From: Methylococcales bacterium
GTDB lineage: Bacteria; Pseudomonadota; Gammaproteobacteria; Methylococcales; Methylomonadaceae
Direction of reading: 5' to 3'
NCBI GenBank assembly: GCA_965224575.1
Contig: CBDCZQ010000001.1
Coordinates: 94,798 to 158,797 of the forward strand
Length of the DNA stretch: 64,000 bases
The notes under the pieces were generated by a model. The model worked only from the letters and a program-made list of their open reading frames with translations. It was not told the DNA's origin and did not search any database. The translations under genes were made by a program, and so were the position numbers. Below, piece after piece: positions 42,060 through 64,000 of this stretch (position 1 is its first letter; each line of letters starts with the position of its first letter).

Positions 42060-42203
42060 TAATATCCGGTTCTTGGCGCAGAGTTTTTGTTCGTATTCAA
42101 GGCGTATAAACTGGCGCATAGCAGGTTACGCAACTATTTCTATAACGCAGAAGACGGACAAAAAAACAAGTCAAGAATCCGATATTATTAAATCCTCGTT
42201 CCT
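42044..42203. repeat. MITE-like 160-bp element (TIR AGGAxTGAGGATTTAATAATATCCG)
   Basis: AGGAATGAGGATTTAATAATATCCGG at 42044-42069 pairs with CCGATATTATTAAATCCTCGTTCCT at 42179-42203. A 195-bp relative lies at 59212-59406. The left TIR supplies the last codons and stop of rnhB. Confidence 0.8.
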
Positions 42204-42296: not shown

Positions 42297-45200
42297 ATGA
42301 AACCTGAGTTTGTCCATTTACGCGTTCATTCTGAATTCTCATTAGTAGATGGAATTGTCAAAATAAAACCATTAGTTAAGAAATTGCTTGGTTTTAATAT
42401 GCCTGCTGTTGCGCTAACAGAACAATCCAATCTTTTTTCATTAGTTAAGTTTTATCAAGCAACCCAATCTCAGGGTATTAAAGCAATTGTAGGCTCAGAT
42501 GTTTATATAGTTAATGCCGAAGACCCTGAAAAACCTTTTAGACTGACCTTAATTGCTAGAGATAACAAAGGCTATACAACACTAACAGAGTTAGTTTCCA
42601 AGGCTTATCAGGAAGGACAATATCAAGATGTTCCGATGATAAAAAAGGAGTGGATTAAGGTTAATCATCAAGGGTTGATTGCAATCTCTGCGGGGATGGA
42701 AGGGGATGTGGGAATTGCTCTTTTAGCTGATAAGCATGAAATTGCCGAACAATGTGCATCTGATTGGATGGAAATTTTTGATCAGAATTTTTATCTTGAA
42801 ATCCAACGTGTAGGGAAGAATGAGGAAGAACGTTATCTCCAGTCTGCCGTAGAACTGGCACTAAAACTTGATTTACCTGTTGTAGCCACTAATGATGTGC
42901 GGTTTTTAGATAAAGCAGATTTTGATTCACATGAAGTACGTGTTTGTATTAATCAGGGAAGAGTTCTGGATGATACTCGGCGACCAAAAGATTATACCAA
43001 TCAACAATATCTTCGTAGTACAGAAGAGATGTTGGAATTATTTTCAGATATTCCAGAAGCTTTAGAAAATACGGTAGAAATAGCCAAACGATGCAATGTT
43101 GAATTAACCCTAGGAAAAAATTATTTACCCGATTTCCCTGTTCCTGAAGGAATGACCTTAGATGAGTTTTTTATTGATGCATCAAAAAAAGGGCTTGATG
43201 AAAGGTTGCAACAATACCCGGCGATTGGAGAGGGGACGGAAGAAGAGAATTTTAAAGTCTATGCAGATCGCTTAGAGTTAGAGTTAAACGTAATCACCCA
43301 AATGGGCTTTCCTGGCTATTTTATGATTGTTGCTGACTTTATTCAGTGGGCTAAAAATCAATTGATTCCAGTTGGGCCGGGCAGAGGGTCTGGAGCGGGT
43401 TCCTTAGTTGCCTATGCACTTAAAATTACAGACCTTGACCCTATAGAATTCGATTTATTATTCGAACGGTTTTTAAATCCAGAACGGGTTTCCATGCCAG
43501 ATTTTGATATTGATTTTTGTATGGATAGGCGCGATGAAGTGATTGATTATGTCGCCAGATATTATGGACGGGATCATGTTTCACAAATTATCACATACGG
43601 ATCAATGGCTGCAAAAGCGGTGATACGAGATGTTGGACGAGTTTCTTCATTTGCTTACGGGTTTGTTGATAGCCTAGCTAAGTTAGTGCCGTTTGAAATA
43701 GGGATGACGCTAACTAAAGCATTACAGGAAAGCCCAGATTTAAAACAACGTTACGAGTCAGAAGAGGATGTAAAGTCTTTGATTGATATGGCGCTTTCTT
43801 TGGAGGGGATATCAAGAAATGCTGGTAAACACGCCGGTGGTGTTGTTATATCCCCAACTAAACTGACCGATTTTTCACCGCTTTATTGTGAAGAGGGTGG
43901 TGGAAATTTAGTCACCCAGTTTGATAAAGATGATGTAGAAGCCGTGGGTCTGGTTAAGTTTGATTTTTTAGGCTTAAGAACTTTAACCATTATTGATTGG
44001 GCGCTGCAGACCATTAATGCACGAAAAAAACAACATAATGAATCCTTAGTCGATATAACCCAGATTCCTCGTGATGATGAAACAACCTATGCAGAAATAT
44101 TTATAAAATGTCAGACAACGGCTGTATTTCAGTTGGAATCTCGTGGTATGAAAGAATTGATCAGGAAGTTAAAGCCTGATTGTTTTGATGACATTATTGC
44201 TCTAGTTGCATTATTTAGACCTGGGCCGTTAGAGTCAGGGATGGTTGATGATTATATTAATGTTAAACATGGAGCCAAAGCTGAATATGCACACCCATTA
44301 CTGGTTGATATTTTAAGCCCAACAAATGGCGTTATTTTGTATCAGGAACAAGTGATGCAAATTGCCAGGGAATTAGCTGGCTATACCTTAGGTGGCGCGG
44401 ATATGTTGCGTCGAGCTATGGGTAAGAAAAAACCGGAAGAAATGGCCAAGCAACGGACAATCTTCACGGAAGGAGCAATTAAAAATCAAATTGATGAATC
44501 AATAGCAACCTACGTTTTTGATTTGATGGAAAAGTTTGCAGGCTATGGGTTTAATAAATCACATTCTGCTGCTTATGCTTTAATTGCCTACCAGACTGCA
44601 TGGCTTAAACGACATTATCCCTCAGCATTTATGGCTGCTGTTATGTCATCCGATATGGACAATACGGATAAGGTGGTCATATTAATTCAAGAATGCAAGG
44701 AAATGAAATTAACCTTGTACCCGCCTGATATTAACCTATCGAATTTTAAATTTACCATTAATGATAAAAACGAAATTCTCTATGGTATCGGTGCTATCAA
44801 AGGGGTAGGTGAGGCTGCCATTGAAGACTTGTTAAAGGAACGAAAAGAAAATGGGGCATTTGCTGGGCTGTATGATTTATGTAAACGTGTTGAATTACGC
44901 AAGGTAAACAAAAGGGTGCTGGAAGCACTGATAAAAGGTGGGGCTTTTGATAATATTGATGATAATAGAGTTGCTCATTTAGCCGAATTGCCTACCGTGT
45001 TAAGGGTAGCAGACCAGCATGGAAAAATGAGTCAGACAGGCCAAAATGATATGTTTGGTTTGGCAGTCAATGTAGAAAAGAGTGATGACTTGGAAGCCTA
45101 TACAACCATAGTTGAGCGATGGACTGAAAAAGAAAAGCTTGAGGAAGAAAAGGTAACATTAGGCCTCTATCTGACAGGCCATCCAATTAAACAATACGAA

Positions 45201-45791
45201 GAGGAATTAAAGCATATCAGGAATGCAAGTATTGCCTCTTTACTTGCTGATGCAGAAAGATCAAAATCTAAAATGGAAGCAAGGGTTGTTGGGTTGGTTG
45301 TAGAAATGAGAGTTAGGCAAACAAAAAAAGGAACGATGATGGGGTTTGCAATTTTGGATGATATAACGGGTAAAATAGAAGTTGCTGCTTTTAGTAAAAC
45401 CTTTGAAGCCTATAAACATATTTTATTAAAAGATACTATTATAGTGGCAGAAGGCCCTGTAGAAGCCAATGATTTTTCGGGTGGATATAGTTTAAGAGCA
45501 GATAGATTATATACTTTTGAAGAGGCACGAGAGTTATTTGCTAGAAGTATAGTGCTAAACTTTGAAGGGGCAGAAAAACAATTGACTATAAAGCCTTTGA
45601 TTGAAAGCTTAAAAGATATTTTAAAACCATTTATAGGCGGAAATTGTCCTCTGCAAATAGCATATTGTTCAAACGAAGCAAAAGCTTCTTTGCAATTGGG
45701 TGATGAATGGAGAGTTCATCCAACAGATGAATTAATTGCAGGTTTAACAAAATTTTTTTTAGCTGATAATGTTCAGGTGAAATACCGCTAA
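42297..45791 (+). CDS. dnaE: DNA polymerase III alpha subunit
   Basis: 1164 aa. PHP domain FVHLRVHSEFSLVDG, polymerase core GPGRGSGAGSLVAYALKITDLDP, PDFDIDF, HAGGVVI, and FNKSHSAAYALIAYQTAWLK. Confidence 0.95.
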   Translation: MKPEFVHLRVHSEFSLVDGIVKIKPLVKKLLGFNMPAVALTEQSNLFSLVKFYQATQSQGIKAIVGSDVYIVNAEDPEKPFRLTLIARDNKGYTTLTELVSKAYQEGQYQDVPMIKKEWIKVNHQGLIAISAGMEGDVGIALLADKHEIAEQCASDWMEIFDQNFYLEIQRVGKNEEERYLQSAVELALKLDLPVVATNDVRFLDKADFDSHEVRVCINQGRVLDDTRRPKDYTNQQYLRSTEEMLELFSDIPEALENTVEIAKRCNVELTLGKNYLPDFPVPEGMTLDEFFIDASKKGLDERLQQYPAIGEGTEEENFKVYADRLELELNVITQMGFPGYFMIVADFIQWAKNQLIPVGPGRGSGAGSLVAYALKITDLDPIEFDLLFERFLNPERVSMPDFDIDFCMDRRDEVIDYVARYYGRDHVSQIITYGSMAAKAVIRDVGRVSSFAYGFVDSLAKLVPFEIGMTLTKALQESPDLKQRYESEEDVKSLIDMALSLEGISRNAGKHAGGVVISPTKLTDFSPLYCEEGGGNLVTQFDKDDVEAVGLVKFDFLGLRTLTIIDWALQTINARKKQHNESLVDITQIPRDDETTYAEIFIKCQTTAVFQLESRGMKELIRKLKPDCFDDIIALVALFRPGPLESGMVDDYINVKHGAKAEYAHPLLVDILSPTNGVILYQEQVMQIARELAGYTLGGADMLRRAMGKKKPEEMAKQRTIFTEGAIKNQIDESIATYVFDLMEKFAGYGFNKSHSAAYALIAYQTAWLKRHYPSAFMAAVMSSDMDNTDKVVILIQECKEMKLTLYPPDINLSNFKFTINDKNEILYGIGAIKGVGEAAIEDLLKERKENGAFAGLYDLCKRVELRKVNKRVLEALIKGGAFDNIDDNRVAHLAELPTVLRVADQHGKMSQTGQNDMFGLAVNVEKSDDLEAYTTIVERWTEKEKLEEEKVTLGLYLTGHPIKQYEEELKHIRNASIASLLADAERSKSKMEARVVGLVVEMRVRQTKKGTMMGFAILDDITGKIEVAAFSKTFEAYKHILLKDTIIVAEGPVEANDFSGGYSLRADRLYTFEEARELFARSIVLNFEGAEKQLTIKPLIESLKDILKPFIGGNCPLQIAYCSNEAKASLQLGDEWRVHPTDELIAGLTKFFLADNVQVKYR

Positions 45792-47720: not shown

Positions 47721-47838
47721 AAAAGTGAAGTAAATAAAATATAAGTTGGGCTGCCGTCTTCTTGGCACCCCAGCTTTTGCTAAAGATGTTGGGTTAACGA
47801 TAAAGCTGTTAGCCCAACCTACTCATTCTTTACTCACA
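47721..47838. repeat. BIME-like composite repeat (shorter copy)
   Basis: AAAAGTGAAGTAAA ... GTTGGGCTGCCGTCTTCTTGGCACCCCAGC ... GTTGGGTTAACGATAAAGCTGTTAGCCCAACCTAC ... TCTTTACTCAC. Confidence 0.75.
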
Positions 47839-53155: not shown

Positions 53156-53485
53156 TAATCGTATAAACAGAGAATCTGTAGGTAGAATAATTTAGCAGAA
53201 ATTATTGAGGAAGAATTAAAGATAAAGCGGACAAATAATCAAATTAAGACTTGGAATATTATAATATTATTAAATGTTATTTTATATGTAAGTGATTGTA
53301 TTTAAAAATAAAACCCTGTCTGTGTCTTAGGGTAAAAATTAAGTATTAATAATATATTAAAAAGTTCAATGAAAATATTATGTTTTGCGTTAGAATGCCA
53401 TTATATGAGAATCAGAAAAAATAATTAGAAGCTAAAAATATCGTAAAGCAAGACAAAATAAACTTAGTAAAAGAGGGTATTGTGT

Positions 53486-55270
53486 ATGATGTTAAATAGA
53501 CTGAATAAAAAATTTGTAACAGTTGTAGTCAGCTTTTTGTTGCTGACTATGTTTCAATCAAATACATTCGCTGATGAGGATGCAGTCGAGAAGGATGAGG
53601 CTGCTGAAGGTCATTTGGGGTTGTTTGTAGGGAATCGATTTCCTTCTGCAAATGAATGTAAATCCTGTCATCCAAAACACTATAAAGAGTGGTCAGTTTC
53701 TCAGCATGCTTATGCTCAATTGAGTCCCGTCTATATGGCAATGCAGAAGACCATTAATGCTGTAACAAGCAGTACCAATGGTGATTTCTGTATTCGATGT
53801 CATACCCCTGTAGGTATGAATCTGGAAGAAACCCCTTTTATGGCTAATTTAGACCGACATCCTACTTCAAGAGAGGGCGTTACTTGCATAGTTTGTCATC
53901 GGATGAATTTGGAATATGGAAAAGTTTCAGGTCGAGTGGCTTTACTGGAAGGTGATTTACAAAAACCAGTTTTTGGACCTAAAGGAAATAAAAATTTACA
54001 ACAAGCACTTGATGATCATCCTTTTTCATTAAAAGAAGGTGAGTCTGGTCGAAAGGTTCATTTAAAAGCGGGTCATTTTCCACGTATTTCAGATTCTGGG
54101 TTCTGTGGTGTATGTCACGATGTTAACTTATTTAATGGTTTTCGTTTAGAAGAAGCCTTTGCAGAATACAAAAACTCACCCGCTGCAAAAGAAGGCATTA
54201 GTTGTCAAGACTGCCATATGGGTAAAATTCAAGGTAAGAAATCAGGTTATGAAGAAGGTCCTGCCGCTTATCTTGGTGATGATTCTTCCAAACCTACAGC
54301 GCCAAGAAAATTGACTAATCATTATTTCGCAGGCCCTGACCACAGTATTATTCACCCAGGTATTTTTCCACACAATGAGGAAGCTGTAGAAATTGCAACA
54401 CTAAAAGAGTGGTTATTGTTTGACTATAAAGCAGGCTGGGGTACAGATGAATTTGAAGATAGTGTCGAAGACGATGCTGAGTTTCCAGAAGTTTGGGACT
54501 CTGTCGATGCCCGGTATGAAGCTAGAGAAGTATTAGATCAGCAATTTGAATTGTTGGAATGGGCCAAGGAAAAACGTGTAGAGGTATTAAAAAATGGCTT
54601 TGCTCATGGTGATATTAAAGTAGTCGAGGCGACTGAAAAAGATGGTATTAAGATTGAAGTCGAAGTTAAAAATATTACCAATGGTCATAATGTTCCTACT
54701 GGCTTTGATGCTGAACGAGTGATTTGGTTACAAACAACAATCACCAACCAAGAAGGGAAAATAATTTTCAAATCTGGAGACCTTGATCCAAATGGGGATG
54801 TACGTGATGCTCATTCACTCTATGTACATAATGGTGAAATTCCATTAGATTCTCAGTTACTGAATTTACAGTCCAAATTTCTGACTCGTAATGTTCGTGG
54901 GGGGGAAAGAGAACAAGTTCTCCCCATCAATTTTTCATTAGATCCACTGCCTTTTGTCCGGCCATCAACACGTTCAACTATTTTGACTGGGCAACCCTTT
55001 GGAGCTAGAAAACATCGGATGACAATTCCGCCGTTAGCAACTCGAATTCATAATTACAAAGTAGATTCTGAATTATTGACGGGTGCTGGTGAATATACTC
55101 TAAAGATTGCAATGAAGGTTGGAATGGTTCCTATCAACTTAATTGATGCTATAAAAGGTGTTGGTTTTGATTATGGGATGTCGACCAGAGAAATCGCTGA
55201 TGGAATTCGTGATGGACACACAACTGTATGGGAAACTGAAACTAAAATCCAAGTTCAATCTGCCAAGTAA
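53486..55270 (+). CDS. Periplasmic pentaheme c-type cytochrome with a ~300-aa heme-free C-terminal domain
   Basis: Signal peptide ...SNTFADE. Five CxxCH motifs: CKSCH, CIRCH, CIVCH, CGVCH, CQDCH. The C-terminal part contains VKNITNGHNVPTGFDAERVIWLQTTITNQEGK. The ORF track starts at TTG 53480; ATG 53486 has the better RBS spacing. Confidence 0.85.
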   Translation: MMLNRLNKKFVTVVVSFLLLTMFQSNTFADEDAVEKDEAAEGHLGLFVGNRFPSANECKSCHPKHYKEWSVSQHAYAQLSPVYMAMQKTINAVTSSTNGDFCIRCHTPVGMNLEETPFMANLDRHPTSREGVTCIVCHRMNLEYGKVSGRVALLEGDLQKPVFGPKGNKNLQQALDDHPFSLKEGESGRKVHLKAGHFPRISDSGFCGVCHDVNLFNGFRLEEAFAEYKNSPAAKEGISCQDCHMGKIQGKKSGYEEGPAAYLGDDSSKPTAPRKLTNHYFAGPDHSIIHPGIFPHNEEAVEIATLKEWLLFDYKAGWGTDEFEDSVEDDAEFPEVWDSVDARYEAREVLDQQFELLEWAKEKRVEVLKNGFAHGDIKVVEATEKDGIKIEVEVKNITNGHNVPTGFDAERVIWLQTTITNQEGKIIFKSGDLDPNGDVRDAHSLYVHNGEIPLDSQLLNLQSKFLTRNVRGGEREQVLPINFSLDPLPFVRPSTRSTILTGQPFGARKHRMTIPPLATRIHNYKVDSELLTGAGEYTLKIAMKVGMVPINLIDAIKGVGFDYGMSTREIADGIRDGHTTVWETETKIQVQSAK

Positions 55271-55287
55271 CTAAACAGGAATGTCTA

Positions 55288-56676
55288 ATGAATAAAAAAT
55301 TAAAGTTATTTAATATTACAAAACATAGTCTGTTTTTGAGCTTGTTACTTTCGTCTAGCGTGCTGTTTGCATCTGAAACGAGCAGACTTTCTGATATTGC
55401 CCCACCATTTCAAGGTGATGATGAACTACCTAAGAGAACACCTCCTATTATTGAAATTGGTGATGCTTTTTTAGGAACAGGAAATATTTCGCCTGGTTTT
55501 ACTTTGCCTACGGGTGCAGTATGGCAACCACGTTTTTGGGTTTATGGACAGTTAAACTCTGCAGTTCAAGCATGGGATACGGGTGACGGTACTTTTAATG
55601 CAGAATGGGCAAATCGACTTGATCTTTTTGGTAATTTACAATTAACAGGGACAGAGAGAGTCGTTATTGGTATACAGCCATTACAAAGCAAGGGTGGGCA
55701 ACATACTGGGTATGAATTTGGCCCTGAAGATCGAGGTTTTGAAGGCGCGAATATTAATATTCGGACATTGTTCTTTGAAGGAGACTTTTCTGAATTATTT
55801 CCAAAACTTGACGTGAAAGATTTTTCATCAAATGATTTAGGTTTTTCAGTTGGTCGGCAAAGTATTTTGTTTCAGGATGGATTTATCATTAACGATATTG
55901 TTGATTCCATAGGTATTACCCGAAATAATCTCCGTTTTTCCAGTCTTCCCTGGTTAAGCAATGGACGTATTAGCGCGGTTTATGCTTGGAATGGTATTCA
56001 TCGGGATGATAATTTAGAAGATGAAAACGCTGATTTATTTGCTATTTTTTCTCAATGGGATACTACATTTAGTACTATTGATATTGATGTCGCTTATGTT
56101 AATACAGATGACGAATCGGGTGGAGATCTTCTGAGTGGAGGTATTAGTGGAGTGCAAAGGTTTGGTGGTCTTTCAACCACACTTCGAGCCTTAGGTTCGT
56201 GGGCACCTGATGGCAGGTCTCGTCAATCGGATAATGGCGCATTGTTTTTTGCTGAGGCTGCCTGGACACCAGCTTATAGTGTAAATCTAGCTTACTTAAA
56301 TGCTTTTGCTTCCATCAATAACTTTCGTTCAGCGGCTCGTGATGTAAGAACTGGAGGGCCACTTGGACGAACTGGATTGTTGTTTGCTGCTCGGTCAGTG
56401 GGTGCATTTCCACCTGCTTTAAGCAATAGAGCTGATAAGGCTTATGGAATTGCTGCTGGCTACCAGATGTTCTTTGACAATAATAGGCGCCAGTTTATTA
56501 TGGAAATAGGTGGTCGTGCTGATGACAGCAATGATACCACGGGAGCTGGAATAGCCGCACGTTTACAACAAGCAATAGGAAAAAGGTATATTGCTCAGGT
56601 TGATGGTTTTGGTGTTATTAGAGATGATACTGATCTTGGCTATGGTGTACGGTTTGAAATGACAGTTAAATTCTAA
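55288..56676 (+). CDS. Predicted outer-membrane beta-barrel (porin-like) protein
   Basis: Signal peptide ...SVLFASE. Alternating-hydrophobic strands with aromatic girdles, Gly-rich turns, and a C-terminal ...GYGVRFEMTVKF with terminal Phe. It lies 17 nt after the pentaheme gene. Confidence 0.65.
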   Translation: MNKKLKLFNITKHSLFLSLLLSSSVLFASETSRLSDIAPPFQGDDELPKRTPPIIEIGDAFLGTGNISPGFTLPTGAVWQPRFWVYGQLNSAVQAWDTGDGTFNAEWANRLDLFGNLQLTGTERVVIGIQPLQSKGGQHTGYEFGPEDRGFEGANINIRTLFFEGDFSELFPKLDVKDFSSNDLGFSVGRQSILFQDGFIINDIVDSIGITRNNLRFSSLPWLSNGRISAVYAWNGIHRDDNLEDENADLFAIFSQWDTTFSTIDIDVAYVNTDDESGGDLLSGGISGVQRFGGLSTTLRALGSWAPDGRSRQSDNGALFFAEAAWTPAYSVNLAYLNAFASINNFRSAARDVRTGGPLGRTGLLFAARSVGAFPPALSNRADKAYGIAAGYQMFFDNNRRQFIMEIGGRADDSNDTTGAGIAARLQQAIGKRYIAQVDGFGVIRDDTDLGYGVRFEMTVKF

Positions 56677-56691
56677 TTAAAATAGGTTGAT

Positions 56692-57954
56692 TTGATGAAT
56701 ACTGAGGGTTTAATCCAAATTGCAGGATTATGTATTAGTGGTTTAGTTTTGCTACAAGTTATTTTCCTCAGTTTTTCATCTTTACGTGCAGGGGTTTATA
56801 AGCGACGTCAATGGCAAACTGAATTATCTGTTCTTGAAAAGCAAATTTCGTTACATGCACTTAACCTTGATTTAGCAAAAAATAAAAGTAAAGGTGCGTG
56901 GGAGGGTTACAGAAAATTTACAATTTCAAAAAAAGAACATGAAAAAAAAAGTGGTATCTGTTCTTTTTATTTGAAACCACATGATGGAATGTCGATTCCT
57001 TCTTTTGAACCAGGACAATATTTATTTTTCAAGTTAAATCTCTCTACTGAAAAAAAACCTATTCTTCGTTGTTATTCTTTATCTGATAGCCCTTTAAATA
57101 AGGATTGTTATCGTGTAAGTATAAAAAAAGCATTGCCTCCAGGAGATAATTCAAATCTACCTAGTGGCATTTCTTCTAGTTATTTTCATGATAACTTGCA
57201 AGAGGGCGATATTGTTGATGTTAGAGCGCCAAGTGGTAAGTTTTATATAGATCTATTAAGTCATAAACCTGTAGTTCTTATTGGTGGAGGCGTTGGTATT
57301 ACCCCTGTGCTTAGTATGCTGAATGCACTTTGTGATATAAATTCTCAGCGAGAAATTTGGTTCTTTTTTGGAATTAGAAATGGTGATGAACATATTATGG
57401 AGTCACATTTCAAAGCGATTGAAGACAAATTCGATAATATCCATATTAATATTTGCTACAGTAGACCAACCGAGCAGGATAAAAAAGAGAAAAAATATCA
57501 TCATGCCAGTCGGGTAAATATTGACTTGTTAAAACAATTGTTACCTAGTAACAATTATGAGTTTTATTTTTGTGGGCCACCTCAAATGATGGATAGTTTG
57601 GAAACAGACCTTAAAACTTGGGGTGTCCCCAAATCCTCTGTTAATTTTGAGCGTTTTGGCAGCCCGTCAAAAAAAATAGTAGAAACTCTGGATAAATCAA
57701 TCCCCATCAATTTTAGTCGTAGTCAAAAAACTTTAAATTGGGATGGGGCGCAATCCTTACTTGATCTTGCGGAAGATAATAATATTGTCATAGACTCCTC
57801 TTGTAAACGGGGAATGTGTGGTTTGTGTCAAACTTCAATTAAATCTGGCTCTGTATTCTACGATGAAATACCTGAATATTTACCTGAATTGGAAGAGGGG
57901 TTGTGCTTACCCTGTGTAGCAAAGACTAAGGACAAACTGGAATTAGATGCCTGA
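56692..57954 (+). CDS. Membrane-anchored ferredoxin-NAD(P) reductase-like flavoprotein with a C-terminal plant-type 2Fe-2S domain
   Basis: N-terminal TM LIQIAGLCISGLVLLQVIFLSF. FAD motif RCYSLSD. NAD(P) motif GGGVGITPVLSM. FCGPPQMM. 2Fe-2S ligands CKRGMCGLCQ...CLPC. Confidence 0.8.
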   Translation: MMNTEGLIQIAGLCISGLVLLQVIFLSFSSLRAGVYKRRQWQTELSVLEKQISLHALNLDLAKNKSKGAWEGYRKFTISKKEHEKKSGICSFYLKPHDGMSIPSFEPGQYLFFKLNLSTEKKPILRCYSLSDSPLNKDCYRVSIKKALPPGDNSNLPSGISSSYFHDNLQEGDIVDVRAPSGKFYIDLLSHKPVVLIGGGVGITPVLSMLNALCDINSQREIWFFFGIRNGDEHIMESHFKAIEDKFDNIHINICYSRPTEQDKKEKKYHHASRVNIDLLKQLLPSNNYEFYFCGPPQMMDSLETDLKTWGVPKSSVNFERFGSPSKKIVETLDKSIPINFSRSQKTLNWDGAQSLLDLAEDNNIVIDSSCKRGMCGLCQTSIKSGSVFYDEIPEYLPELEEGLCLPCVAKTKDKLELDA

Positions 57955-57991
57955 TTCCTTAAATGTTAACTTAAAGAGAGAAATCAAGATT

Positions 57992-59011
57992 ATGAATATA
58001 TTAATTAGAAGGATTCAAAGTTTTTTTCTATTTTCTATGATAGCACTAAGCTTATTAAATCCCGCATTCTCAAAAGAGGTTTCTCCGGAAACGATGGCAA
58101 CTTTAGGACCTAAAGCTTGTGCAAATTGTCATAAATCTTCAATCCGAGCATGGAAACCAACCCATCACTTTAAAACTTTTAAAGCCTTAACAAGAAATAA
58201 AGAAGCAAAGGTCATTGCTAAAAAAATGGGTATTAAGCGAATGAAAAGCGGAAGTGATTGTTTGACTTGTCATTTCACCTCTAAACCGAAAAAAGGTAAA
58301 ACAAAAGTAGTAGCGGGTATCTCCTGTGAATCTTGTCATGGTCCAGCAAAAGGCTGGATGGATATTCATAGTGATTTTGGTGGAAAAGGAGTTAAAGCAG
58401 CGGATGAAACACCAGAGCATAAAGTTACACGCTTTGCTGAGTCAGTTAAAAACGGCATGATTAGACCTTCTAATTTATATGATGTAGGTAAAAACTGTTA
58501 TAGCTGCCATACAGTCCCTAATGAAAAACTAGTTAATACAGGTGGTCATACCGCAGGTAGTGATTTCGAATTGGTAAAATGGAGTCAAGGAGAAGTGCGT
58601 CATAATGTCTGGTATGACGATAAAGTGAATAACTCTCCAGCTGTAGAGCGCTTACGTATGATGTATATTATTGGTAAAGCATTGGATCTAGAATATGCAT
58701 TACGAGGACTTGCAAAAGCGACTGAAGAACAAACTTACTATACATCAATGGTTAAACGTCAACAAACTGCTTCAGCAGATTTACAGCAAGTCGCTGATAA
58801 ATTAAAAGTTGCTGAAATAACAGCCATCATAACTGCGGCTTCTAGTGCCGAGGTTAAAGTTAATAATTTAGATGCTCTAAATGGTGCAGCAGATAAAGTC
58901 GGTGCTGCTGCTCAGGCAGCCGCTAAGAAATTTGATGGTGCTCAGTTTGCAGCTATTGATGGTTTGTTACCTGCGGCAGCTGATTATAAGGGTGCAGTAT
59001 TTCAACCATAA
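57992..59011 (+). CDS. Periplasmic tetraheme c-type cytochrome with an Ala-rich C-terminal tail
   Basis: Signal peptide MNILIRRIQSFFLFSMIALSLLNPAFS. Four CxxCH motifs: CANCH, CLTCH, CESCH, CYSCH. The tail reads ...AAASSAEVKVNNLDALNGAADKVGAAAQAAAKKFDGAQFAAIDGLLPAAADYK. The ORF track starts at 57947, overlapping the previous gene. Confidence 0.85.
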   Translation: MNILIRRIQSFFLFSMIALSLLNPAFSKEVSPETMATLGPKACANCHKSSIRAWKPTHHFKTFKALTRNKEAKVIAKKMGIKRMKSGSDCLTCHFTSKPKKGKTKVVAGISCESCHGPAKGWMDIHSDFGGKGVKAADETPEHKVTRFAESVKNGMIRPSNLYDVGKNCYSCHTVPNEKLVNTGGHTAGSDFELVKWSQGEVRHNVWYDDKVNNSPAVERLRMMYIIGKALDLEYALRGLAKATEEQTYYTSMVKRQQTASADLQQVADKLKVAEITAIITAASSAEVKVNNLDALNGAADKVGAAAQAAAKKFDGAQFAAIDGLLPAAADYKGAVFQP

Positions 59012-59032
59012 ATTAAGATATTGTTTTTTGTA

Positions 59033-59118
59033 GGTTGGGCTAACAGCTCTATCGTTAACCCAACGACTTTATGTTATGTAAAGTTAGGTGTAAAAAAGAA
59101 ACAGCCCAACCTACAACA
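59033..59118. repeat. Partial BIME-like repeat
   Basis: GTAGGTTGGGCTAACAGCTCTATCGTTAACCCAAC (module 2, inverted) ... AACAGCCCAACCTACAAC. Confidence 0.7.
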
Positions 59119-59211
59119 ATCTCTTAGCATAATGCTAATCAGACTTTAGAGCTTTTGCTTGAGTCTACCTTACAGAAGCTTTGGTATTGAAAGAAAAATT
59201 TGTTTCACCTT

Positions 59212-59406
59212 AGGAGTGAGGATTTAATAATATCCGTATCTTGACGCAGGGTTTTAGTTCGTTTCAAGGCCTAGAAACGAGCGCATAGCAGGCTACGCAA
59301 CCGTTTCTACAACGCAGAAGACGAGCAAAAAGATTAGAAAATATTTAGCGATTCTTAATGCTTTAGTACAAATTAAGATACGGATATTATTAAATCCTCA
59401 CTCCTT
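59212..59406. repeat. MITE-like 195-bp element, relative of 42044-42203
   Basis: AGGAGTGAGGATTTAATAATATCCGTATC at 59212-59240 pairs with GATACGGATATTATTAAATCCTCACTCCT at 59378-59406. The internal ...GCGCATAGCAGGCTACGCAAC...AACGCAGAAGACG... is shared with the 42-kb copy. Confidence 0.8.
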
Positions 59407-59426
59407 AGGATTAAGTCAAGTAAATT

Positions 59427-61115
59427 ATGATTGATAAAGAAAAATGGTGGGACCCGAGAATGACAGAACAGGATATTAAGAATATCCTGTTCTGTGAAAT
59501 TTTCAATAAAATTGACCAAGATAAATTTCCATCAAGTCGTTCATTAGAAAGTATTATTTGTGAGCATACTCGTCTGGTTGATTTTAAAGCAGGGGAGGTG
59601 ATTGTTCGTGCTGGTGATTATGGTAATTCAGCTTTTTTAATTATTGATGGAAATGTTGACATTATTTTGCCAACTAATAGTTCGGATAAAATCTTTGGTC
59701 ATCCTGTTTCACAGCCGACTAATTGGTTTAAAGAAATAGCAAAATTGTGGAAAAACAGCGTTTACCCTGAGGTTAGAAATTACCAAAACAATGCATCAAA
59801 TACTTTAGATATTCAGGTTGACCATGATAGACACAGAGTCTTTATTAAGAATTATTCTAAAATAATAGAGCAGTTAAAAAAAAGTGTTATTAAAAGAACA
59901 TCAGGAGATATTACTGGTGAAATCGCAGCATTAAGCCGTTCCCCCAGAACGGCACATATCATAGCGTCTACAGACAGTCAGTTATTAGAAATTCGTTGGC
60001 AAGGTTTACATACATTGCGTAAGTTTAATGATGAATTTCGACAAAAAGTGGATATGCTTTATAGAAAGAACAGCCTGGATGCCTTACGTATATTACCTTT
60101 GTTTTCAAATTTAGAAAAACATGAACAAGATCAGGTTATTGAGCATTCGCTGTTTGAATCTTATGGTGAGTTTTCTTGGCAGGATGACTATAAAAAAGAT
60201 GTTGAGCAGGAATCTTCTGATTTATTAAAGAATGAAACTTTAATTGTTGCAGAAGGTGATTATGCCGATGGTTTATTATTTATACGTTCAGGTATTGCTC
60301 GTGTTAGTAATAAATACAATCATGGACATAGGGTTTTAAAGTATCTTAATAAAGGAGATGTTTTTGGCTTGGATGTGATGATACATAATTGGAAAAATAA
60401 GGACAGTATTCCATTGGCGACAAGTCTATATGCAGTTGGGTATACTGATGTTTTACGTGTTCCTTATCATATAATTGAACAATTTGTTTTACCTAAAATG
60501 TCATCCTCAGAAATAGATAAAAGCTTGTTGGAGCTTGAAACTATTTCTAGTGAAAATAAAGACTATGCAAAGGATCTGCGTATTTCAGATGGCATGTTAG
60601 ATTTTATGAGTGATTATCGCTACATAAATGGTTCAGCTAGTATGTTAATAGATCTGGATCGATGTATTCGGTGTGATGATTGCGTTAATGCTTGTGCTGT
60701 AGGGCATAATAATAATCCTCGTTTTAACAGGCATGGCCGGCGATATGATCATTTTATGGTAGCTAATGCTTGTATGCATTGCCATGATCCTGTTTGTATG
60801 ATTGGTTGTCCAACAGGTGCAATTCATCGAGAACCCAGTGGACAAATTGCCATTAATGATGATACCTGTATTGGTTGTAGTACCTGCGCCAATTCTTGTC
60901 CATATGACAATATCAGGATGATAAGTGCAAGGGATGAAATGGGAGAACTTATGACAGATGAAATGAGCCAGAAACCTGTCATAAAAGCAACGAAATGTGA
61001 TTTATGCGTCGATCAGATTGGTGGCCCTGCCTGTGTAAGAGCGTGTCCGCATGATGCATTAACTCGTATAGATTTTCTTGCTTTATCTACTTTAATTGAT
61101 AAGTGGGATCAATAA
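59427..61115 (+). CDS. Cytoplasmic fusion of two cyclic-nucleotide-binding (CAP-effector) domains and an NrfC/DmsB-type four-cluster FeS module
   Basis: cNMP domain 1: FKAGEVIVRAGDYGNSAFLIIDGNV...GDITGEIAALSRSPRTAHIIA. Domain 2: LIVAEGDYADGLLFIRSGIARV...GDVFGLD. Four Cys clusters: CIRCDDCVNAC, CMHCHDPVCMIGCP, CIGCSTCANSCP, CDLCVDQIGGPACVRACP. No Tat or Sec leader. Confidence 0.8.
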   Translation: MIDKEKWWDPRMTEQDIKNILFCEIFNKIDQDKFPSSRSLESIICEHTRLVDFKAGEVIVRAGDYGNSAFLIIDGNVDIILPTNSSDKIFGHPVSQPTNWFKEIAKLWKNSVYPEVRNYQNNASNTLDIQVDHDRHRVFIKNYSKIIEQLKKSVIKRTSGDITGEIAALSRSPRTAHIIASTDSQLLEIRWQGLHTLRKFNDEFRQKVDMLYRKNSLDALRILPLFSNLEKHEQDQVIEHSLFESYGEFSWQDDYKKDVEQESSDLLKNETLIVAEGDYADGLLFIRSGIARVSNKYNHGHRVLKYLNKGDVFGLDVMIHNWKNKDSIPLATSLYAVGYTDVLRVPYHIIEQFVLPKMSSSEIDKSLLELETISSENKDYAKDLRISDGMLDFMSDYRYINGSASMLIDLDRCIRCDDCVNACAVGHNNNPRFNRHGRRYDHFMVANACMHCHDPVCMIGCPTGAIHREPSGQIAINDDTCIGCSTCANSCPYDNIRMISARDEMGELMTDEMSQKPVIKATKCDLCVDQIGGPACVRACPHDALTRIDFLALSTLIDKWDQ

Positions 61116-61933
61116 TGAATTATTCTGGGCGTCGCATTCAAAATAGTTTGTTAAGCATTGCACTAACTGCTGTTTTACTTATTTTTTTAAAAATATATGG
61201 GATTCCTTTATATCGAATGCAAGTCTGGTCAGGCTGGATTCTTTTTACCTTAATTTTATTGCTGCTAATTTATAATATTAGGAAGAAACTTTCGATGTTA
61301 CCTTTAGGAAGGGCTGCATTTTGGTTGCAGTGTCATGCTTATTTGGGCTTAGTAACATGTGTTATGTTTATCCAGCATATTAACTTTCGGTTTCCCAGTG
61401 GAAATTTTGAAATTCTATTTTCTAGCGTTTTTATTTTTACTGCTTTTACTGGAATATTTGGCTTGATACTGTCTAGAGTTGTCCCTAAATATTTATCAAG
61501 CAGAGGGGAAGAGGTAATTTTTGAGCGTATTCCAATATTTACTGTTAAGCTTAAAGATCAATCTCAAGCACTCATTAAAGAGTGTGTGAGTGCAACAAAA
61601 TCAAAAGTATTATTTGATTATTATCAGCAACATTTATTTGAATATTTTTGTGAACCAAAAAATATTTTTTTTCATTTAATAGGGTCTAATTCAGCATGGA
61701 ATAAAATGCTTATTAAACACCGTACTTTTGATCGGTTTTTAAGTGATGAAGAGAATGAATATGCTGATAAATTACTCATTTTAATGCGACAAAAGAACGA
61801 CCTTGATTACCATTATGCTCTTCAAGGTCTATTAAAAGCCTGGACTTTTTTGCATTTTCCCCTGAGTTTTGCACTGTTGGTTTTATCCCTACTCCATGTG
61901 GCATTGGTTTATGCTTTTGTCGGAGGTATTTAA
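61115..61933 (+). CDS. Polytopic inner-membrane protein (about 5 TM, conserved-looking His in TM segments), unknown family
   Basis: TM segments include AAFWLQCHAYLGLVTCVMFIQHI and FLHFPLSFALLVLSLLHVALVY. The ATG at 61115 overlaps the upstream TAA (TAATG), and its own TAA overlaps the next ATG (TAATG at 61931-61935). The ORF track starts at GTG 61103. Confidence 0.65.
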   Translation: MNYSGRRIQNSLLSIALTAVLLIFLKIYGIPLYRMQVWSGWILFTLILLLLIYNIRKKLSMLPLGRAAFWLQCHAYLGLVTCVMFIQHINFRFPSGNFEILFSSVFIFTAFTGIFGLILSRVVPKYLSSRGEEVIFERIPIFTVKLKDQSQALIKECVSATKSKVLFDYYQQHLFEYFCEPKNIFFHLIGSNSAWNKMLIKHRTFDRFLSDEENEYADKLLILMRQKNDLDYHYALQGLLKAWTFLHFPLSFALLVLSLLHVALVYAFVGGI

Positions 61934-64000
61934 TGCGTAGCAAAGCCCAACCTCTTCAAAATTTTGATTTTCAAGAGAGTCCTTATGAAAGACCTAATCA
62001 AAAGTGGGTCTGTGGAAAAAAGGCTCAGGGGTGTCCCTGTGAAATAGGGCCTGATAAAAAAGGGAAATGCCGAGCAGATTTTGAATGTAAACCTAAAGCT
62101 AGCATAAATGGCGATCAGTGGAATTGTACACGTTCTAGTTCTTTTGGTGGTAATTGTACTCATGGTCCGTTACCTGATGGTACATGTTGCCAGCCCATTA
62201 CCCCTTGTTATCCAGTCCGAAGTATTAGATATAAGCGGTCTTTGGTAATAAAGTGGGTAACGATAGCGACTTTAGGAATTCTTCTGCTTCTCATAAATGG
62301 AAGTAGTAAACATCATTTTATCAGCCCAGGCGAATTAACCTATCAGCATGCGAATAATACTGAATGCTCTGATTGCCATCAAGTTTTTGATAAAGGGTTT
62401 ACTGGATGGGTACATCAGGCACTCAATTCCGTCAATATTATTGATAACAATGAGCAATGTATTAATTGTCATGAACTAGGTGAACATGCTGATGAAGCGC
62501 ATGGATTGTCTGAAGCAGGACTTAAAAAAATATCTTATACCTTGGATGCAGGGAAAGAAAGTCCGGATAGGCAACAAATTGCCTGTATGACATGCCATGT
62601 TGAGCACCATGGTACAAATAATAATTTGTTGGCAGTTAATAGCCAGAATTGTGCTTTATGTCATGATCTTCCTTTTAAGAATGGTAAAAAATCTCATCCT
62701 GAATTCCGTCAATATCCTTATCGACATAGAACAGGGATTATTTTTGATCATACTCAACATTACGATAAACATTTTTTTGATAAAAGTGGTGAAACTCGGA
62801 AAGAGAATGCACCGAGTTCATGTTTAACTTGTCATGCAAGTGATAAGAATGGGATAAAAATGGTTGTTAGGGATTATCAGAAAACATGTTCTGAATGCCA
62901 CAATAGTCTATTTGAAGAATCAGAGGCATTTCCTGTCATTACTGTTCCTGCTTTAGATACTGAAAATATTGTTTCACTAGGAGCCTGGCCTGCTGATGCA
63001 GATGCTGGATTAACACCTTTTATGAAATTACTTCTTTCCAATGGCGATAAAATCAAAGCCGTTTTGGCAGAACTTGATGGAGGCGATCTTACAGAATTGG
63101 AAGAAGAAGATGCACAAGTTGTTGCTTGGAGCATTAAAGAATTATTTTACGATATATATAAACAGGGAGATGTTGCTGTTACACAACGATTAGCAAATGC
63201 ATTTAATTGCCAAATAAATTCAAAGGGTAAATTGATTCAAGAACCCGCTTGTCAATTAACAGTGAATAAATTAGATGCTTTAGTTTCAGCTTTCCCATAT
63301 CCACTCTTTTGCTCTGCCCAAAAGGAATGGTTTCCAAAACTGGCTAATGAAATTAAGCTTTATCTTGATTTTAAAGGGAAAAGAAAAAATATTTTGTCTA
63401 ATTCCTCACTCACTTTTTGCGAAACGATAAATAAGACTGCGGATAGTGATTCAGATTCAGAGGCTTGGATGCTAGATTATTTTACTCTGAGTTACCGCCC
63501 TGTAACTCATGCTGATAAATTTTTTAGCACATGGTTAAATGCCAGTCAAAATCATCAGGGTGAATCATTAGATGACAAAACACGAAAAGAAATATTTGAT
63601 TTGTTAAACTCTGAAGATTCAGCAGGGCAGTGTATTTATTGTCATAGTGTTGATAGTATTGATACAGATAATAATTATATACATTGGTCAACTCCTCAGT
63701 GGAACCCAAAGCGTAAAGACTTTATTCGTTTTAATCATGCGGGTCATTTACGACACCAAGAAGAAAGTGTATGTAAAGATTGTCATAAAGAAAACAAAGA
63801 AGCTGATTACTTAGCCAGCTATAAAAACAGTACTCCTTTAGATTTTCAGAGTAATTTCTCAACTGGAAAAGAACAATGCGAGACTTGTCATAATCAAGCG
63901 ATGACAGAAAAACAATGTCAAACATGTCATAATTATCATGTTAGTGATGATAATGATTTTTCCAATCAGGATTTTATGGGAAGAGGAAACTTAAAAGTTT
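61933..64000 (+). CDS. Membrane-anchored multiheme c-type cytochrome (at least 10 hemes) with a Cys-rich N-terminal cytoplasmic segment; 3' end outside the window
   Basis: This ORF is not in the supplied track because it has no stop in the window. It runs for 689 codons without a stop from ATG 61933. The pre-TM region has 11 Cys (CGKKAQGCPCEIGPDKKGKCRADFECKP...NCTRSSSFGGNCTHGPLPDGTCCQPITPCYP). The TM segment is WVTIATLGILLLLI. It then carries CSDCH, CINCH, CMTCH, CALCH, CLTCH, CSECH, CIYCH, CKDCH, CETCH and CQTCH. Confidence 0.85.
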   Translation, partial: MRSKAQPLQNFDFQESPYERPNQKWVCGKKAQGCPCEIGPDKKGKCRADFECKPKASINGDQWNCTRSSSFGGNCTHGPLPDGTCCQPITPCYPVRSIRYKRSLVIKWVTIATLGILLLLINGSSKHHFISPGELTYQHANNTECSDCHQVFDKGFTGWVHQALNSVNIIDNNEQCINCHELGEHADEAHGLSEAGLKKISYTLDAGKESPDRQQIACMTCHVEHHGTNNNLLAVNSQNCALCHDLPFKNGKKSHPEFRQYPYRHRTGIIFDHTQHYDKHFFDKSGETRKENAPSSCLTCHASDKNGIKMVVRDYQKTCSECHNSLFEESEAFPVITVPALDTENIVSLGAWPADADAGLTPFMKLLLSNGDKIKAVLAELDGGDLTELEEEDAQVVAWSIKELFYDIYKQGDVAVTQRLANAFNCQINSKGKLIQEPACQLTVNKLDALVSAFPYPLFCSAQKEWFPKLANEIKLYLDFKGKRKNILSNSSLTFCETINKTADSDSDSEAWMLDYFTLSYRPVTHADKFFSTWLNASQNHQGESLDDKTRKEIFDLLNSEDSAGQCIYCHSVDSIDTDNNYIHWSTPQWNPKRKDFIRFNHAGHLRHQEESVCKDCHKENKEADYLASYKNSTPLDFQSNFSTGKEQCETCHNQAMTEKQCQTCHNYHVSDDNDFSNQDFMGRGNLKV

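What the first reader, a model, noticed from the sequence alone, without database searches (positions are those of the whole stretch)
61933..64000. Large unlisted ORF: at least a decaheme cytochrome with an 11-Cys cytoplasmic head and a single TM anchor, running off the window
The supplied ORF track shows only short spurious ORFs here (62597-62827, 62877-63134, 63524-63925). Frame +1 from ATG 61933 is nevertheless open for 689 codons to the window edge and contains ten CxxCH motifs.

Ahead of the TM helix there are about 95 residues with 11 cysteines (CGKKAQGCPC...C...C...C...C...CC...C). This could bind metal or FeS on the cytoplasmic side. If so, a single polypeptide would carry redox centres on both faces of the membrane, which is unusual for multiheme cytochromes.
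Basis: seen in the sequence. Interest (0 to 1): 0.65.

Follow-up and report, generated by a model that had tools for sequence, protein, structure and literature searches.

The report
Membrane-anchored decahaem cytochrome PtdG
The open frame is a real gene, the ten-haem cytochrome PtdG of a recently named but uncharacterised seven-gene electron-transfer operon (ptdABCDEFG), and its strongly conserved cysteine-rich cytoplasmic head and membrane anchor have apparently not been described before.

Summary
Frame +1 from ATG 61933 is open to the window edge and carries ten CxxCH motifs and one TM helix. The head has 10 cysteines, not 11, and 8 of them are invariant. An identical public contig shows the full protein is 813 aa with exactly ten haem motifs.

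The gene is ptdG, the last gene of the ptdABCDEFG operon named in bioRxiv 10.1101/2023.11.21.568154, where its function is called completely unknown. All seven genes lie at 53480-64000 in the published order.

That preprint calls PtdG periplasmic and does not mention the head or the anchor. Here the head is the best-conserved part of the protein. It consists of two duplicated 4-Cys modules, always N-terminal and on the cytoplasmic side. AlphaFold2 models it confidently, and it has no Pfam, PDB-sequence or Foldseek match.

The neighbour PtdF has four invariant histidines arranged as two H-x13-H pairs in TM helices, which fits a two-haem b wire. Electrons therefore probably cross the membrane through PtdF, not along PtdG's single helix.

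My best guess is that the head is a metal-binding module, probably Fe-S, that links cytoplasmic PtdC/PtdE to the PtdF-PtdG membrane core. Metal binding has not been tested.

The parts
61933..64000 (+). ptdG, first 689 of 813 codons. The gene would end at window-equivalent position 64374.
   Evidence: Open frame with ten CxxCH. Full length taken from the identical contig L081. 58 homologues found.
61933..62232 (+). Cytoplasmic Cys-rich head (aa 1-100) with 8 invariant Cys. It is the best-conserved region of the protein.
   Evidence: Alignments. Identity to homologues is 63% against 36-47% for the periplasmic regions (TM 35%). AF2 mean pLDDT 89.6. No Pfam, PDB or Foldseek match.
61999..62100 (+). 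4-Cys module 1 (aa 23-56): W-x-C-x8-C-xx-GP-x3-G-x-C-x5-C-x-P, with C27, C36, C46 and C52.
   Evidence: Invariant columns. hhalign of module 1 against module 2 gives probability 95.7%, E 1e-8.
62113..62220 (+). 4-Cys module 2 (aa 61-96), with C65, C75, C85 and C92. It ends about 10 residues before the TM helix.
   Evidence: The number of modules ranges from 0 to 3 across lineages.
62239..62304 (+). Single TM helix (aa 103-124), preceded by RSIRYKRS.
   Evidence: Hydropathy. AF2 helix at 98-122. Flank charges.
62365..62901 (+). Periplasmic haem block 1, six CxxCH (aa 145-323).
   Evidence: Pfam cytochrome c3 / Paired_CXXCH hits. Conserved distal His 139, 190, 225, 255, 273 and 276.
62923..63612 (+). 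Non-haem insert (aa 331-560). It is the least conserved periplasmic region and is expanded by acidic low-complexity stretches in some homologues.
63631..63939 (+). Periplasmic haem block 2, four CxxCH (aa 567-666) plus His669.
   Evidence: Pfam Cytochrome_C7 and MtrC/MtrF domain II/IV hits. Conserved His 526, 602, 605 and 669.
61115..61933 (+). ptdF, a 272-aa protein with 5 TM helices and four invariant His arranged as two H-x13-H pairs: H78/H92 and H251/H265 (numbered from GTG 61103). Its stop overlaps the ptdG start by 1 nt.
59427..61115 (+). ptdE, a cytoplasmic protein with cNMP-binding domains and four Cys groups of the DmsB/HybA type (16 Cys).
57947..59011 (+). ptdD, a tetrahaem c554-like cytochrome with an N-terminal signal or anchor.
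56692..57954 (+). ptdC: N-terminal TM helix, FAD/NAD(P)-binding FNR-like module, then a C-terminal 2Fe-2S ferredoxin domain.
55288..56676 (+). ptdB, a putative outer-membrane beta-barrel. It has a signal peptide, no Cys and a C-terminal Phe.
   Evidence: The preprint calls it a porin.
53480..55270 (+). ptdA, a pentahaem cytochrome with a signal peptide.

Best explanation
The ORF is ptdG, the inner-membrane decahaem c-type cytochrome of the ptdABCDEFG operon.

Topology (inferred): the N-terminal 100 residues are cytoplasmic, one helix crosses the membrane, and ten probably bis-His haems lie in the periplasm.

How it works (inferred from anatomy and synteny):
1. PtdC takes electrons from NAD(P)H through FAD to its 2Fe-2S centre.
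2. PtdE carries them along up to four 4Fe-4S clusters.
3. PtdF passes them across the membrane through two stacked b haems.
4. PtdG's ten c haems relay them through the periplasm to PtdD (four haems) and then to PtdA/PtdB (pentahaem plus outer-membrane barrel).

The flow could also run the other way, and the terminal substrate is unknown.

The head of PtdG consists of two duplicated, self-contained 4-Cys modules lying directly on the cytoplasmic membrane surface. I think each most likely binds a metal centre, more likely an Fe-S cluster than zinc. In that case the head docks, and possibly wires, PtdE/PtdC to the cytoplasmic face of the PtdF-PtdG core.

The confidence of 0.55 is for the whole package. 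Taken separately: identity as PtdG about 0.95, N-in topology about 0.9, transmembrane route through PtdF about 0.7, metal-binding head about 0.75, and Fe-S rather than Zn about 0.4-0.45.
For: Identity as PtdG:
- All seven genes are present in the published order and with the published domain content.
- The cluster recurs in Nitrospinota, Nitrospirales, Planctomycetota, Verrucomicrobiota, Alpha- and Gammaproteobacteria.

Topology:
- Flank charges favour N-in in 168 of 168 members.
- There is no N-terminal signal sequence.

Haems as an electron wire:
- Ten conserved non-motif histidines match the ten CxxCH motifs.

PtdF as the transmembrane path:
- Four invariant His form two H-x13-H pairs in TM helices in 58 of 58 homologues, and also in a distant subfamily.
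- E-F and F-G overlap by 1 nt.
- C-E-F-G stays together as a tight core even where A and B are replaced by other genes.

Head as a functional metal module:
- Eight Cys are invariant across the aligned family representatives (up to 148 sequences).
- It is the highest-identity region (63%).
- The internal duplication is significant (E 1e-8).
- Modules occur in 0, 1, 2 or 3 copies, which points to a self-contained unit.
- AF2 gives pLDDT of about 90-95 across head residues 21-100 once the alignment is deep.
- Every locus with PtdE and a complete 5' end of ptdG has the head. All 7 headless loci lack PtdE and the FNR part of PtdC.
- There is no CxxC pair, and Zn(Cys)4 and rubredoxin sites almost always have one (my own knowledge). 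The even 8-9-5 spacing suits a larger cluster better.
- Precedent: RseC has a cytoplasmic N-terminal 4-Cys domain that forms an Fe-S cluster and is membrane-anchored beside the Rsx/Rnf-like complex (PMC11729352).
Against: - No metal, haem or topology measurement exists.
- The head has no ferredoxin, HiPIP, rubredoxin or zinc-ribbon motif and no Pfam, PDB or Foldseek relative. The choice between Fe-S and Zn is a judgement.
- I could not read the model's coordinates, so S-S distances are unknown.
- A module number that varies from 0 to 3, and natural headless PtdG, argue against the head being an obligatory link in a fixed electron chain.
- At least five Nitrospirales loci keep an intact head although PtdE is absent, so PtdE cannot be its only partner.
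- PtdF gives no significant hit to ferric-reductase or cytochrome b561 models. The only hits are DUF4405 at E 0.17 and Ni_hydr_CYTB at E 2, and there is none in PDB sequences.
- No RNA data were found. The runs that hold the sequence have the flat depth expected of DNA.
Confidence: 0.55

Rival explanations
1. The head is a purely structural Zn(Cys)4 module, one zinc per repeat, with no redox role. It only anchors or positions cytoplasmic partners, or stabilises the PtdF-PtdG assembly.
For: - Four-Cys modules in front of a TM helix are commonly zinc-binding in bacteria (my own knowledge).
- A module number of 0 to 3 and natural headless variants show that an exact cofactor chain is not required.
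- The AF2 model is mostly coil with short beta bridges, as in small metal-knuckle domains.
Against: - Neither repeat has a CxxC or CPxC knuckle.
- There is no zinc-ribbon Pfam hit even at E <= 10.
- There is no Foldseek match to any zinc domain.
Confidence: 0.3
2. One reading: PtdG alone carries redox centres on both faces and itself conducts electrons between the cytoplasm and the periplasm.
For: Cytoplasmic invariant cysteines and periplasmic haems lie in one chain.
Against: - The single TM helix has no conserved His or Cys to hold a cofactor and is only 35% conserved. About 30 Å of membrane is too far for one electron-tunnelling step (established electron-transfer theory).
- PtdF, next door and translationally coupled, offers a two-haem route and is present in every locus with an intact upstream flank.
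- Headless PtdG exists in clusters that are otherwise intact.
Confidence: 0.05
3. PtdF is a quinol-oxidising cytochrome b, like the b subunit of CbcL or FdnI/HydC. PtdG would then be fed from the quinone pool. PtdC/PtdE and the head would serve regulation (cNMP sensing, redox or metal sensing) rather than electron input.
For: - There is a weak sub-threshold similarity of PtdF to prokaryotic cytochrome b561 / Ni_hydr_CYTB.
- Inner-membrane multihaem cytochromes of known extracellular electron-transfer systems are quinol dehydrogenases (my own knowledge: CymA, ImcH, CbcL).
- PtdE carries cNMP-binding domains.
Against: - A complete NAD(P)H-FAD-2Fe2S protein and a four-cluster ferredoxin are kept in tight order with F and G across phyla, and also in the distant subfamily. 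That fits an electron-input module better than a sensor.
- No quinone-site motif was identified.
Confidence: 0.15
4. The head is not translated. The real start would be near the TM helix (about Val96), and the upstream 285 nt would be non-coding.
For: The stretch RSIRYKRS followed by a hydrophobic segment looks like a standard signal anchor on its own. Some homologues do start there.
Against: - The head is the most conserved protein segment across phyla, and all eight Cys are invariant.
- The ATG has a GGAGG Shine-Dalgarno sequence and overlaps the ptdF stop.
- Headless loci physically lack the DNA: only about 70 nt separate F and G there.
Confidence: 0.01

Closest known systems
PtdG of the ptdABCDEFG (penta/tetra/deca-haem) operon, bioRxiv 10.1101/2023.11.21.568154
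   Same: It is a decahaem protein encoded last in a cluster with the same gene order and the same domain content: pentahaem, porin, FAD/NAD oxidoreductase, tetrahaem, cNMP + 4Fe-4S protein, TM protein, decahaem. The taxa that carry it are the same.
   Different: The preprint calls PtdG periplasmic (PSORTb) and mentions neither a TM anchor nor a Cys-rich head; 'cysteine' does not occur in its text or in the supplements held. The host here is a Methylococcales-like bacterium, and its PtdG has an extra C-terminal DUF4384 domain.
MtrA/DmsE decahaem cytochromes and MtrCAB porin-cytochrome complexes
   Same: Ten c-type haems forming a wire. The operon also encodes an outer-membrane barrel and further multihaem cytochromes. 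There is a local Pfam hit to MtrC/MtrF domain II/IV.
   Different: The score against the DmsE family model is 26.9 bits against a cut-off of 192. MtrA is soluble and sits inside the porin, whereas PtdG is anchored in the inner membrane and has a cytoplasmic domain.
Inner-membrane cytochromes CymA/NapC/NirT, ImcH and CbcL of metal reducers
   Same: They are TM-anchored multihaem cytochromes that start the periplasmic leg of an electron conduit. CbcL also pairs a two-haem b module with a multihaem c module (my own knowledge).
   Different: PtdG has no NapC/NirT Pfam hit. Those proteins draw on the quinone pool and have no cytoplasmic Cys-rich domain and no dedicated NAD(P)H/Fe-S partners.
NADPH oxidase / ferric reductase (NOX/FRE) and MsrQ-type two-haem b membrane domains with an FNR-like dehydrogenase
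   Same: PtdC (FAD/NAD, with a faint Ferric-reductase NAD_binding_6 hit) together with PtdF (two H-x13-H pairs in TM helices) resembles a split NOX: NAD(P)H, flavin and two stacked b haems across the membrane.
   Different: PtdF gives no Ferric_reduct Pfam hit. PtdC carries an extra 2Fe-2S domain, and a four-cluster ferredoxin (PtdE) sits between them. The acceptor is a decahaem cytochrome, not O2 or Fe(III) directly.
RseC (SoxR-reducing system, partner of Rsx/Rnf)
   Same: It has an N-terminal cytoplasmic four-cysteine domain that can hold an oxygen-sensitive Fe-S cluster. The domain is tethered to the membrane by TM helices beside a membrane electron-transfer complex (PMC11729352).
   Different: The Cys spacing differs (CX5CX2CX5C against C-x8-C-x9-C-x5-C, twice). 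No sequence similarity was detected (no Pfam hit). RseC has no haem domain.

Membership tests
PtdG / ptdABCDEFG operon | Ten CxxCH haem-binding motifs | tested here: met
   Ten motifs in the window. The full-length protein from the identical contig also has exactly ten. Of 100 full-length family representatives, 92 have ten.
PtdG / ptdABCDEFG operon | Encoded with pentahaem, porin, FAD/NAD oxidoreductase, tetrahaem, cNMP+4Fe-4S and TM proteins in the order A to G | tested here: met
   Window 53480-64000 carries all seven in that order. The same order is found in dozens of loci. This matches the description read.
PtdG / ptdABCDEFG operon | Direct sequence match to the accessions listed in the preprint (e.g. 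MBT5131322) | not tested
   Those accessions could not be fetched with the tools. Related Saanich Inlet Rhodospirillaceae loci (L027, L029, L034) do match at 35-37% identity.
MtrA/DmsE decahaem family (TIGR03508) | Score above the curated cut-off of the family model | tested here: not met
   26.9 bits against a cut-off of 192.2.
NapC/NirT/CymA quinol dehydrogenases (PF03264) | Match to the NapC/NirT model | tested here: not met
   No PF03264 hit for PtdG at E <= 0.01.
4Fe-4S ferredoxin domains (for the head) | CxxCxxCxxxCP motif or a Fer4 Pfam match | tested here: not met
   The head has no such motif and no Pfam family at E <= 10.
Zinc ribbon / rubredoxin-like (for the head) | Two CxxC (CPxC) knuckles | tested here: not met
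   There is no CxxC pair among the conserved cysteines; the spacing is 8-9-5 in each module. No Pfam, PDB-sequence or Foldseek match.
Any metal-binding domain (for the head) | Bound Fe, Fe-S or Zn | not testable with these tools
   This needs purification with metal analysis and spectroscopy.
Two-haem transmembrane cytochrome b (NOX/FRE, cytochrome b of bc1, b561 kinds), for PtdF | Two pairs of invariant His on two TM helices, spaced about 13 residues apart | tested here: met
   H78/H92 and H251/H265 are invariant in 58 of 58 homologues, in alignment A5 and in the distant subfamily.
Ferric reductase TM domain (PF01794), for PtdF | Match to the Pfam model | tested here: not met
   The only hits are DUF4405 at E 0.17 and Ni_hydr_CYTB at E 2. 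There is no related PDB sequence.

The most novel reading that the evidence does not exclude
The PtdG head is a new kind of cytoplasmic Fe-S (or Fe(Cys)4) module: a roughly 34-residue unit with a C-x8-C-x9-C-x5-C pattern and no known fold relative. It would wire PtdE/PtdC to the inner haem of PtdF. PtdCEFG would then be a self-contained conduit, independent of the quinone pool, running from NAD(P)H to periplasmic and outer-membrane cytochromes in marine nitrite oxidisers, methanotrophs, planctomycetes and alphaproteobacteria.
Probability: 0.3. Interest if true: 0.75.

Novelty: new member of a known kind. Interest (0 to 1): 0.5.

Why it matters
The ptd operon is widespread in marine bacteria. 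Its carriers include the main marine nitrite oxidisers, the abundant oxygen-deficient-zone Alphaproteobacteria in which it was first described (where ptdAB are highly transcribed), and here a vent- or invertebrate-associated methanotroph. Its function is unknown.

Three points change the working model. PtdG is membrane-anchored with a conserved cytoplasmic Cys4x2 domain. PtdF has a two-haem signature. C-E-F-G is the invariant core. Together these turn 'a porin-cytochrome complex of unknown function' into a concrete, testable proposal: a conduit between cytoplasmic NAD(P)H and the cell surface that bypasses the quinone pool.

The head is also a candidate new metal-binding fold. Cultured carriers listed by the preprint, such as Roseibium aggregatum and Tistlia consotensis, make ordinary genetics and biochemistry feasible.

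Tried and rejected
- Pfam and NCBIfam scans of the head gave nothing, even at E <= 10.
- A head profile against PDB sequences gave only an insignificant match to an SRCR domain (E 0.28).
- AF2 of the head with a 45-sequence alignment was poor (pLDDT 62). I did not use that model. A 148-sequence alignment gave pLDDT 89.6.
- A PtdF profile against PDB sequences gave chance hits only.
- The search for related loci with broad alignments failed because no stretch was conserved enough. It worked with the close group.
- RNA evidence was sought, but the runs holding the sequence have the flat depth expected of DNA, so nothing can be said about transcription.
- The alternative start near codon 96 was rejected on conservation and on the geometry of the headless loci.
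- A periplasmic, disulfide-rich head was rejected. There is no signal peptide, the flank charges point the other way, and both ends cannot be periplasmic with only one TM helix.
Full report
**Observation**

Translation of 61933-64000 in frame +1 gives 689 codons without a stop. It contains ten CxxCH motifs at aa 145, 176, 218, 240, 297, 319, 567, 614, 649 and 662, and one hydrophobic segment at about aa 103-124. The first 100 residues hold ten cysteines, not eleven.

The window has 36.9% GC. From that I calculate that a random frame would hit a stop about every 15 codons, so an open run of this length is not chance. The ATG is preceded by GGAGG and overlaps the TAA of the upstream gene by one base. 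The ORF lister omits ORFs that run off the window, which explains why only short ORFs were listed.

**Full length**

A protein look-up with the upstream gene product found contig L081. It is 100% identical to window 55115-64000 over 8,886 bases and continues beyond it. There the gene encodes 813 aa with exactly the same ten CxxCH motifs. The last 124 aa include a DUF4384 domain, and an OmpA-family gene follows. A second locus, L001, is 94% identical in DNA and labelled 'uncultured Methylomarinum sp.' It shows the same end.

**Family**

A homology search returned 58 proteins. Full-length close relatives are 803-816 aa and cover the query from residue 1.

The N-terminal head is conserved down to homologues of about 30% overall identity. 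Eight cysteines (C27, C36, C46, C52, C65, C75, C85, C92) and several Gly, Pro and Trp residues are invariant. C86 is 82% conserved and C34 is not conserved.

The head is an internal duplication of one unit, W-x-C-x8/9-C-xx-GP-x3-G-x-C-x5-C-x-P. A profile-profile comparison of the two halves gives probability 95.7% and E 1e-8. It is the best-conserved part of the protein: 63% mean identity, against 47% and 44% for the two haem blocks, 36% for the insert and 35% for the TM helix.

A head profile searched against 1.84 billion representative proteins found 654 clusters (572 at E <= 1e-10). In the 150 best-scoring ones listed, the head is at the N-terminus. Of the 100 full-length proteins among these 150, 92 have exactly ten CxxCH. 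Head + TM + decahaem is therefore a fixed architecture.

**Topology**

- There is no N-terminal signal sequence.
- In 168 of 168 family members the 15 residues before the helix carry more net positive charge than the 15 after it (mean +4.4 against +0.2).
- c-type haem attachment takes place on the periplasmic side (established knowledge), so the head must be cytoplasmic.
- Ten conserved histidines outside the motifs (H139, 190, 225, 255, 273, 276, 526, 602, 605, 669) fit ten bis-His electron-transfer haems.

**Neighbourhood**

The six genes upstream encode the following:

| Gene position | Product |
|---|---|
| 53480-55270 | pentahaem cytochrome |
| 55288-56676 | 462-aa secreted protein with no Cys and a C-terminal Phe (outer-membrane barrel signature) |
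| 56692-57954 | TM-anchored FAD/NAD(P) FNR-like protein with a C-terminal 2Fe-2S domain |
| 57947-59011 | tetrahaem c554-like cytochrome |
| 59427-61115 | protein with cNMP-binding domains plus four DmsB/HybA-type cysteine groups |
| 61115-61933 | 272-aa protein with five TM helices |

In 80 loci recovered from reference genomes, the same seven genes recur in the same order. The loci come from Nitrospinota, Nitrospirales, Planctomycetota, Verrucomicrobiota, Alphaproteobacteria and Gammaproteobacteria. E-F and F-G overlap by one base.

**Literature**

The cluster is the ptdABCDEFG operon named in bioRxiv 10.1101/2023.11.21.568154. That preprint describes:
- PtdA: pentahaem
- PtdB: porin
- PtdC: FAD/NAD(P) oxidoreductase
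- PtdD: tetrahaem
- PtdE: cNMP-binding protein with 4Fe-4S clusters
- PtdF: ferric reductase-like TM protein
- PtdG: 'a periplasmic deca-heme protein'

It states that the function 'remains completely unknown'. Its Table S8 gives PSORTb 'Periplasmic' for PtdG. The word 'cysteine' occurs neither in the text nor in the supplements held. Two further searches found no description of the head. The gene is therefore a member of a named family, but its anchor and head appear to be undescribed.

**PtdF**

Four histidines are invariant in 58 of 58 homologues. They form two H-x13-H pairs in TM3 and TM5 (H78/H92 and H251/H265). Two-haem transmembrane cytochromes b such as NOX/FRE and the cytochrome b of bc1 show this pattern (my own knowledge).

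Pfam gives only sub-threshold hints (DUF4405 at E 0.17, Ni_hydr_CYTB at E 2), and there is no PDB sequence relative. Membership of the ferric-reductase family is therefore not shown. The working analogy is still strong: PtdC plus PtdF looks like a split NOX-type system with extra Fe-S centres in between.

**Variation of the head**

| Module copies | Where found |
|---|---|
| 0 | six Nitrospirales loci and a Hyphomicrobium locus |
| 1 | Marinicaulis; Ca. Poriferihabitaceae |
| 2 | most loci |
| 3 | P0040 |

In the headless loci only about 70 nt separate F and G, and no head is encoded within 10 kb. Every locus with PtdE and a complete 5' end of ptdG has the head. All seven headless loci lack PtdE and keep only the 2Fe-2S part of PtdC. 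At least five other Nitrospirales loci without PtdE keep an intact head.

In a distant subfamily of about 570 aa, the core C-E-F-G is kept in tight order while A and B are replaced by other genes. PtdF keeps its four histidines there.

**Structure of the head**

With 45 sequences AF2 gave pLDDT 62. With 148 sequences it gave 89.6, with block means of 90-95 over residues 21-100 and a helix at 98-122. The head is mostly coil with short beta bridges. Foldseek found no relative in the PDB or BFVD. A head profile found nothing significant among PDB sequences or in Pfam. I could not read the coordinates, so the cysteine geometry is unknown.

**Interpretation**

Shown:
- the gene, its ten haem motifs and the single hydrophobic (predicted TM) segment
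- the conserved two-module Cys head
- the operon and its identity with ptd
- the histidine pattern of PtdF

Inferred:
- N-in topology
- b haems in PtdF
- an electron path from NAD(P)H through PtdC, PtdE, PtdF and PtdG to PtdD and PtdA/B, or the reverse
- metal binding by the head

I favour an Fe-S centre per module, at roughly 0.4-0.45, for these reasons:
- the cysteines are cytoplasmic
- the modules have almost no hydrophobic core
- there is no CxxC knuckle
- module 2 ends about 10 residues before the helix, which places it at the membrane surface next to PtdF
- RseC offers a precedent (PMC11729352)

A structural zinc site (about 0.3) is the main rival. The variable module number favours an accessory or docking role over an obligatory relay. 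It is unlikely as the mechanism of transmembrane conduction.

**Verdict**

This is a real gene and a new member of the named but uncharacterised PtdG family. The finding adds a previously unreported anchor and cytoplasmic Cys4x2 domain, and a concrete model for the operon. Interest is moderate.

Noticed in passing
window 59012-59426 (gap between ptdD and ptdE): The gap is 415 nt here, against about 80-120 nt in other loci. It holds a REP-like palindromic element at 59030-59064, with copies at 47788-47822 and 6082-6112. It also holds a MITE-like element of about 200 bp with perfect 31-bp terminal inverted repeats (59212-59242 and 59375-59405) and a partial copy at 42041-42156. In four public runs, depth over this gap is up to about 25-55 times that of the flanks and contigs break there, so the elements are highly multi-copy in this genome.
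   Followed up: partly
L037, L038, L039, L041, L043, L057 (Nitrospirales); L055 (Hyphomicrobium): These are natural headless PtdG variants. The same clusters lack PtdE and keep only the 2Fe-2S ferredoxin part of PtdC. Sister Nitrospirales loci (L008, L015, L018, L019, L040) have the same reduced cluster but keep an intact head.
   Followed up: partly
L083, L084, L085 (contigs carrying P0049 and P0057): A distant subfamily has a shorter decahaem of about 570 aa that still carries the head. It keeps ptdC-E-F-G in tight order but replaces PtdA/PtdB with very large LVIVD-repeat proteins and an HbpS-like protein. This suggests that CEFG is a portable inner-membrane module with exchangeable outer partners.
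   Followed up: partly
window 59427-61115 (ptdE), aa 412-540: PtdE has four cysteine groups (16 Cys) of the DmsB/HybA/NrfC 'four-cluster' type, so it may hold up to four 4Fe-4S clusters. The preprint states two.
   Followed up: no
P0001 (95% identical homologue, JGI): The tenth haem motif reads YQTCH instead of CQTCH, leaving nine CxxCH. This may be a sequencing error or a natural loss of one haem site.
   Followed up: no
window 61000-64000, runs X1-X20: The exact sequence occurs in runs labelled with one coded organism, an invertebrate metagenome, and hydrothermal-vent and sediment metagenomes. The closest genome record is an 'uncultured Methylomarinum sp.' MAG. The source is probably a vent- or invertebrate-associated methanotroph, a host group not listed for ptd in the preprint.
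   Followed up: partly
L081 9262-9846 and L001 2176-2787 (just past the window end): An OmpA-family gene directly follows ptdG in both Methylococcales-type contigs. The C-terminal DUF4384 extension of PtdG is limited to this clade and P0024.
   Followed up: no
window 4267-5874, 12588-15794, 36984-39371, 42297-45791: The rest of the window is ordinary chromosome: a multicopper oxidase, a large NHL-repeat protein with a peptidase C13 domain, BamA and DnaE.
   Followed up: no
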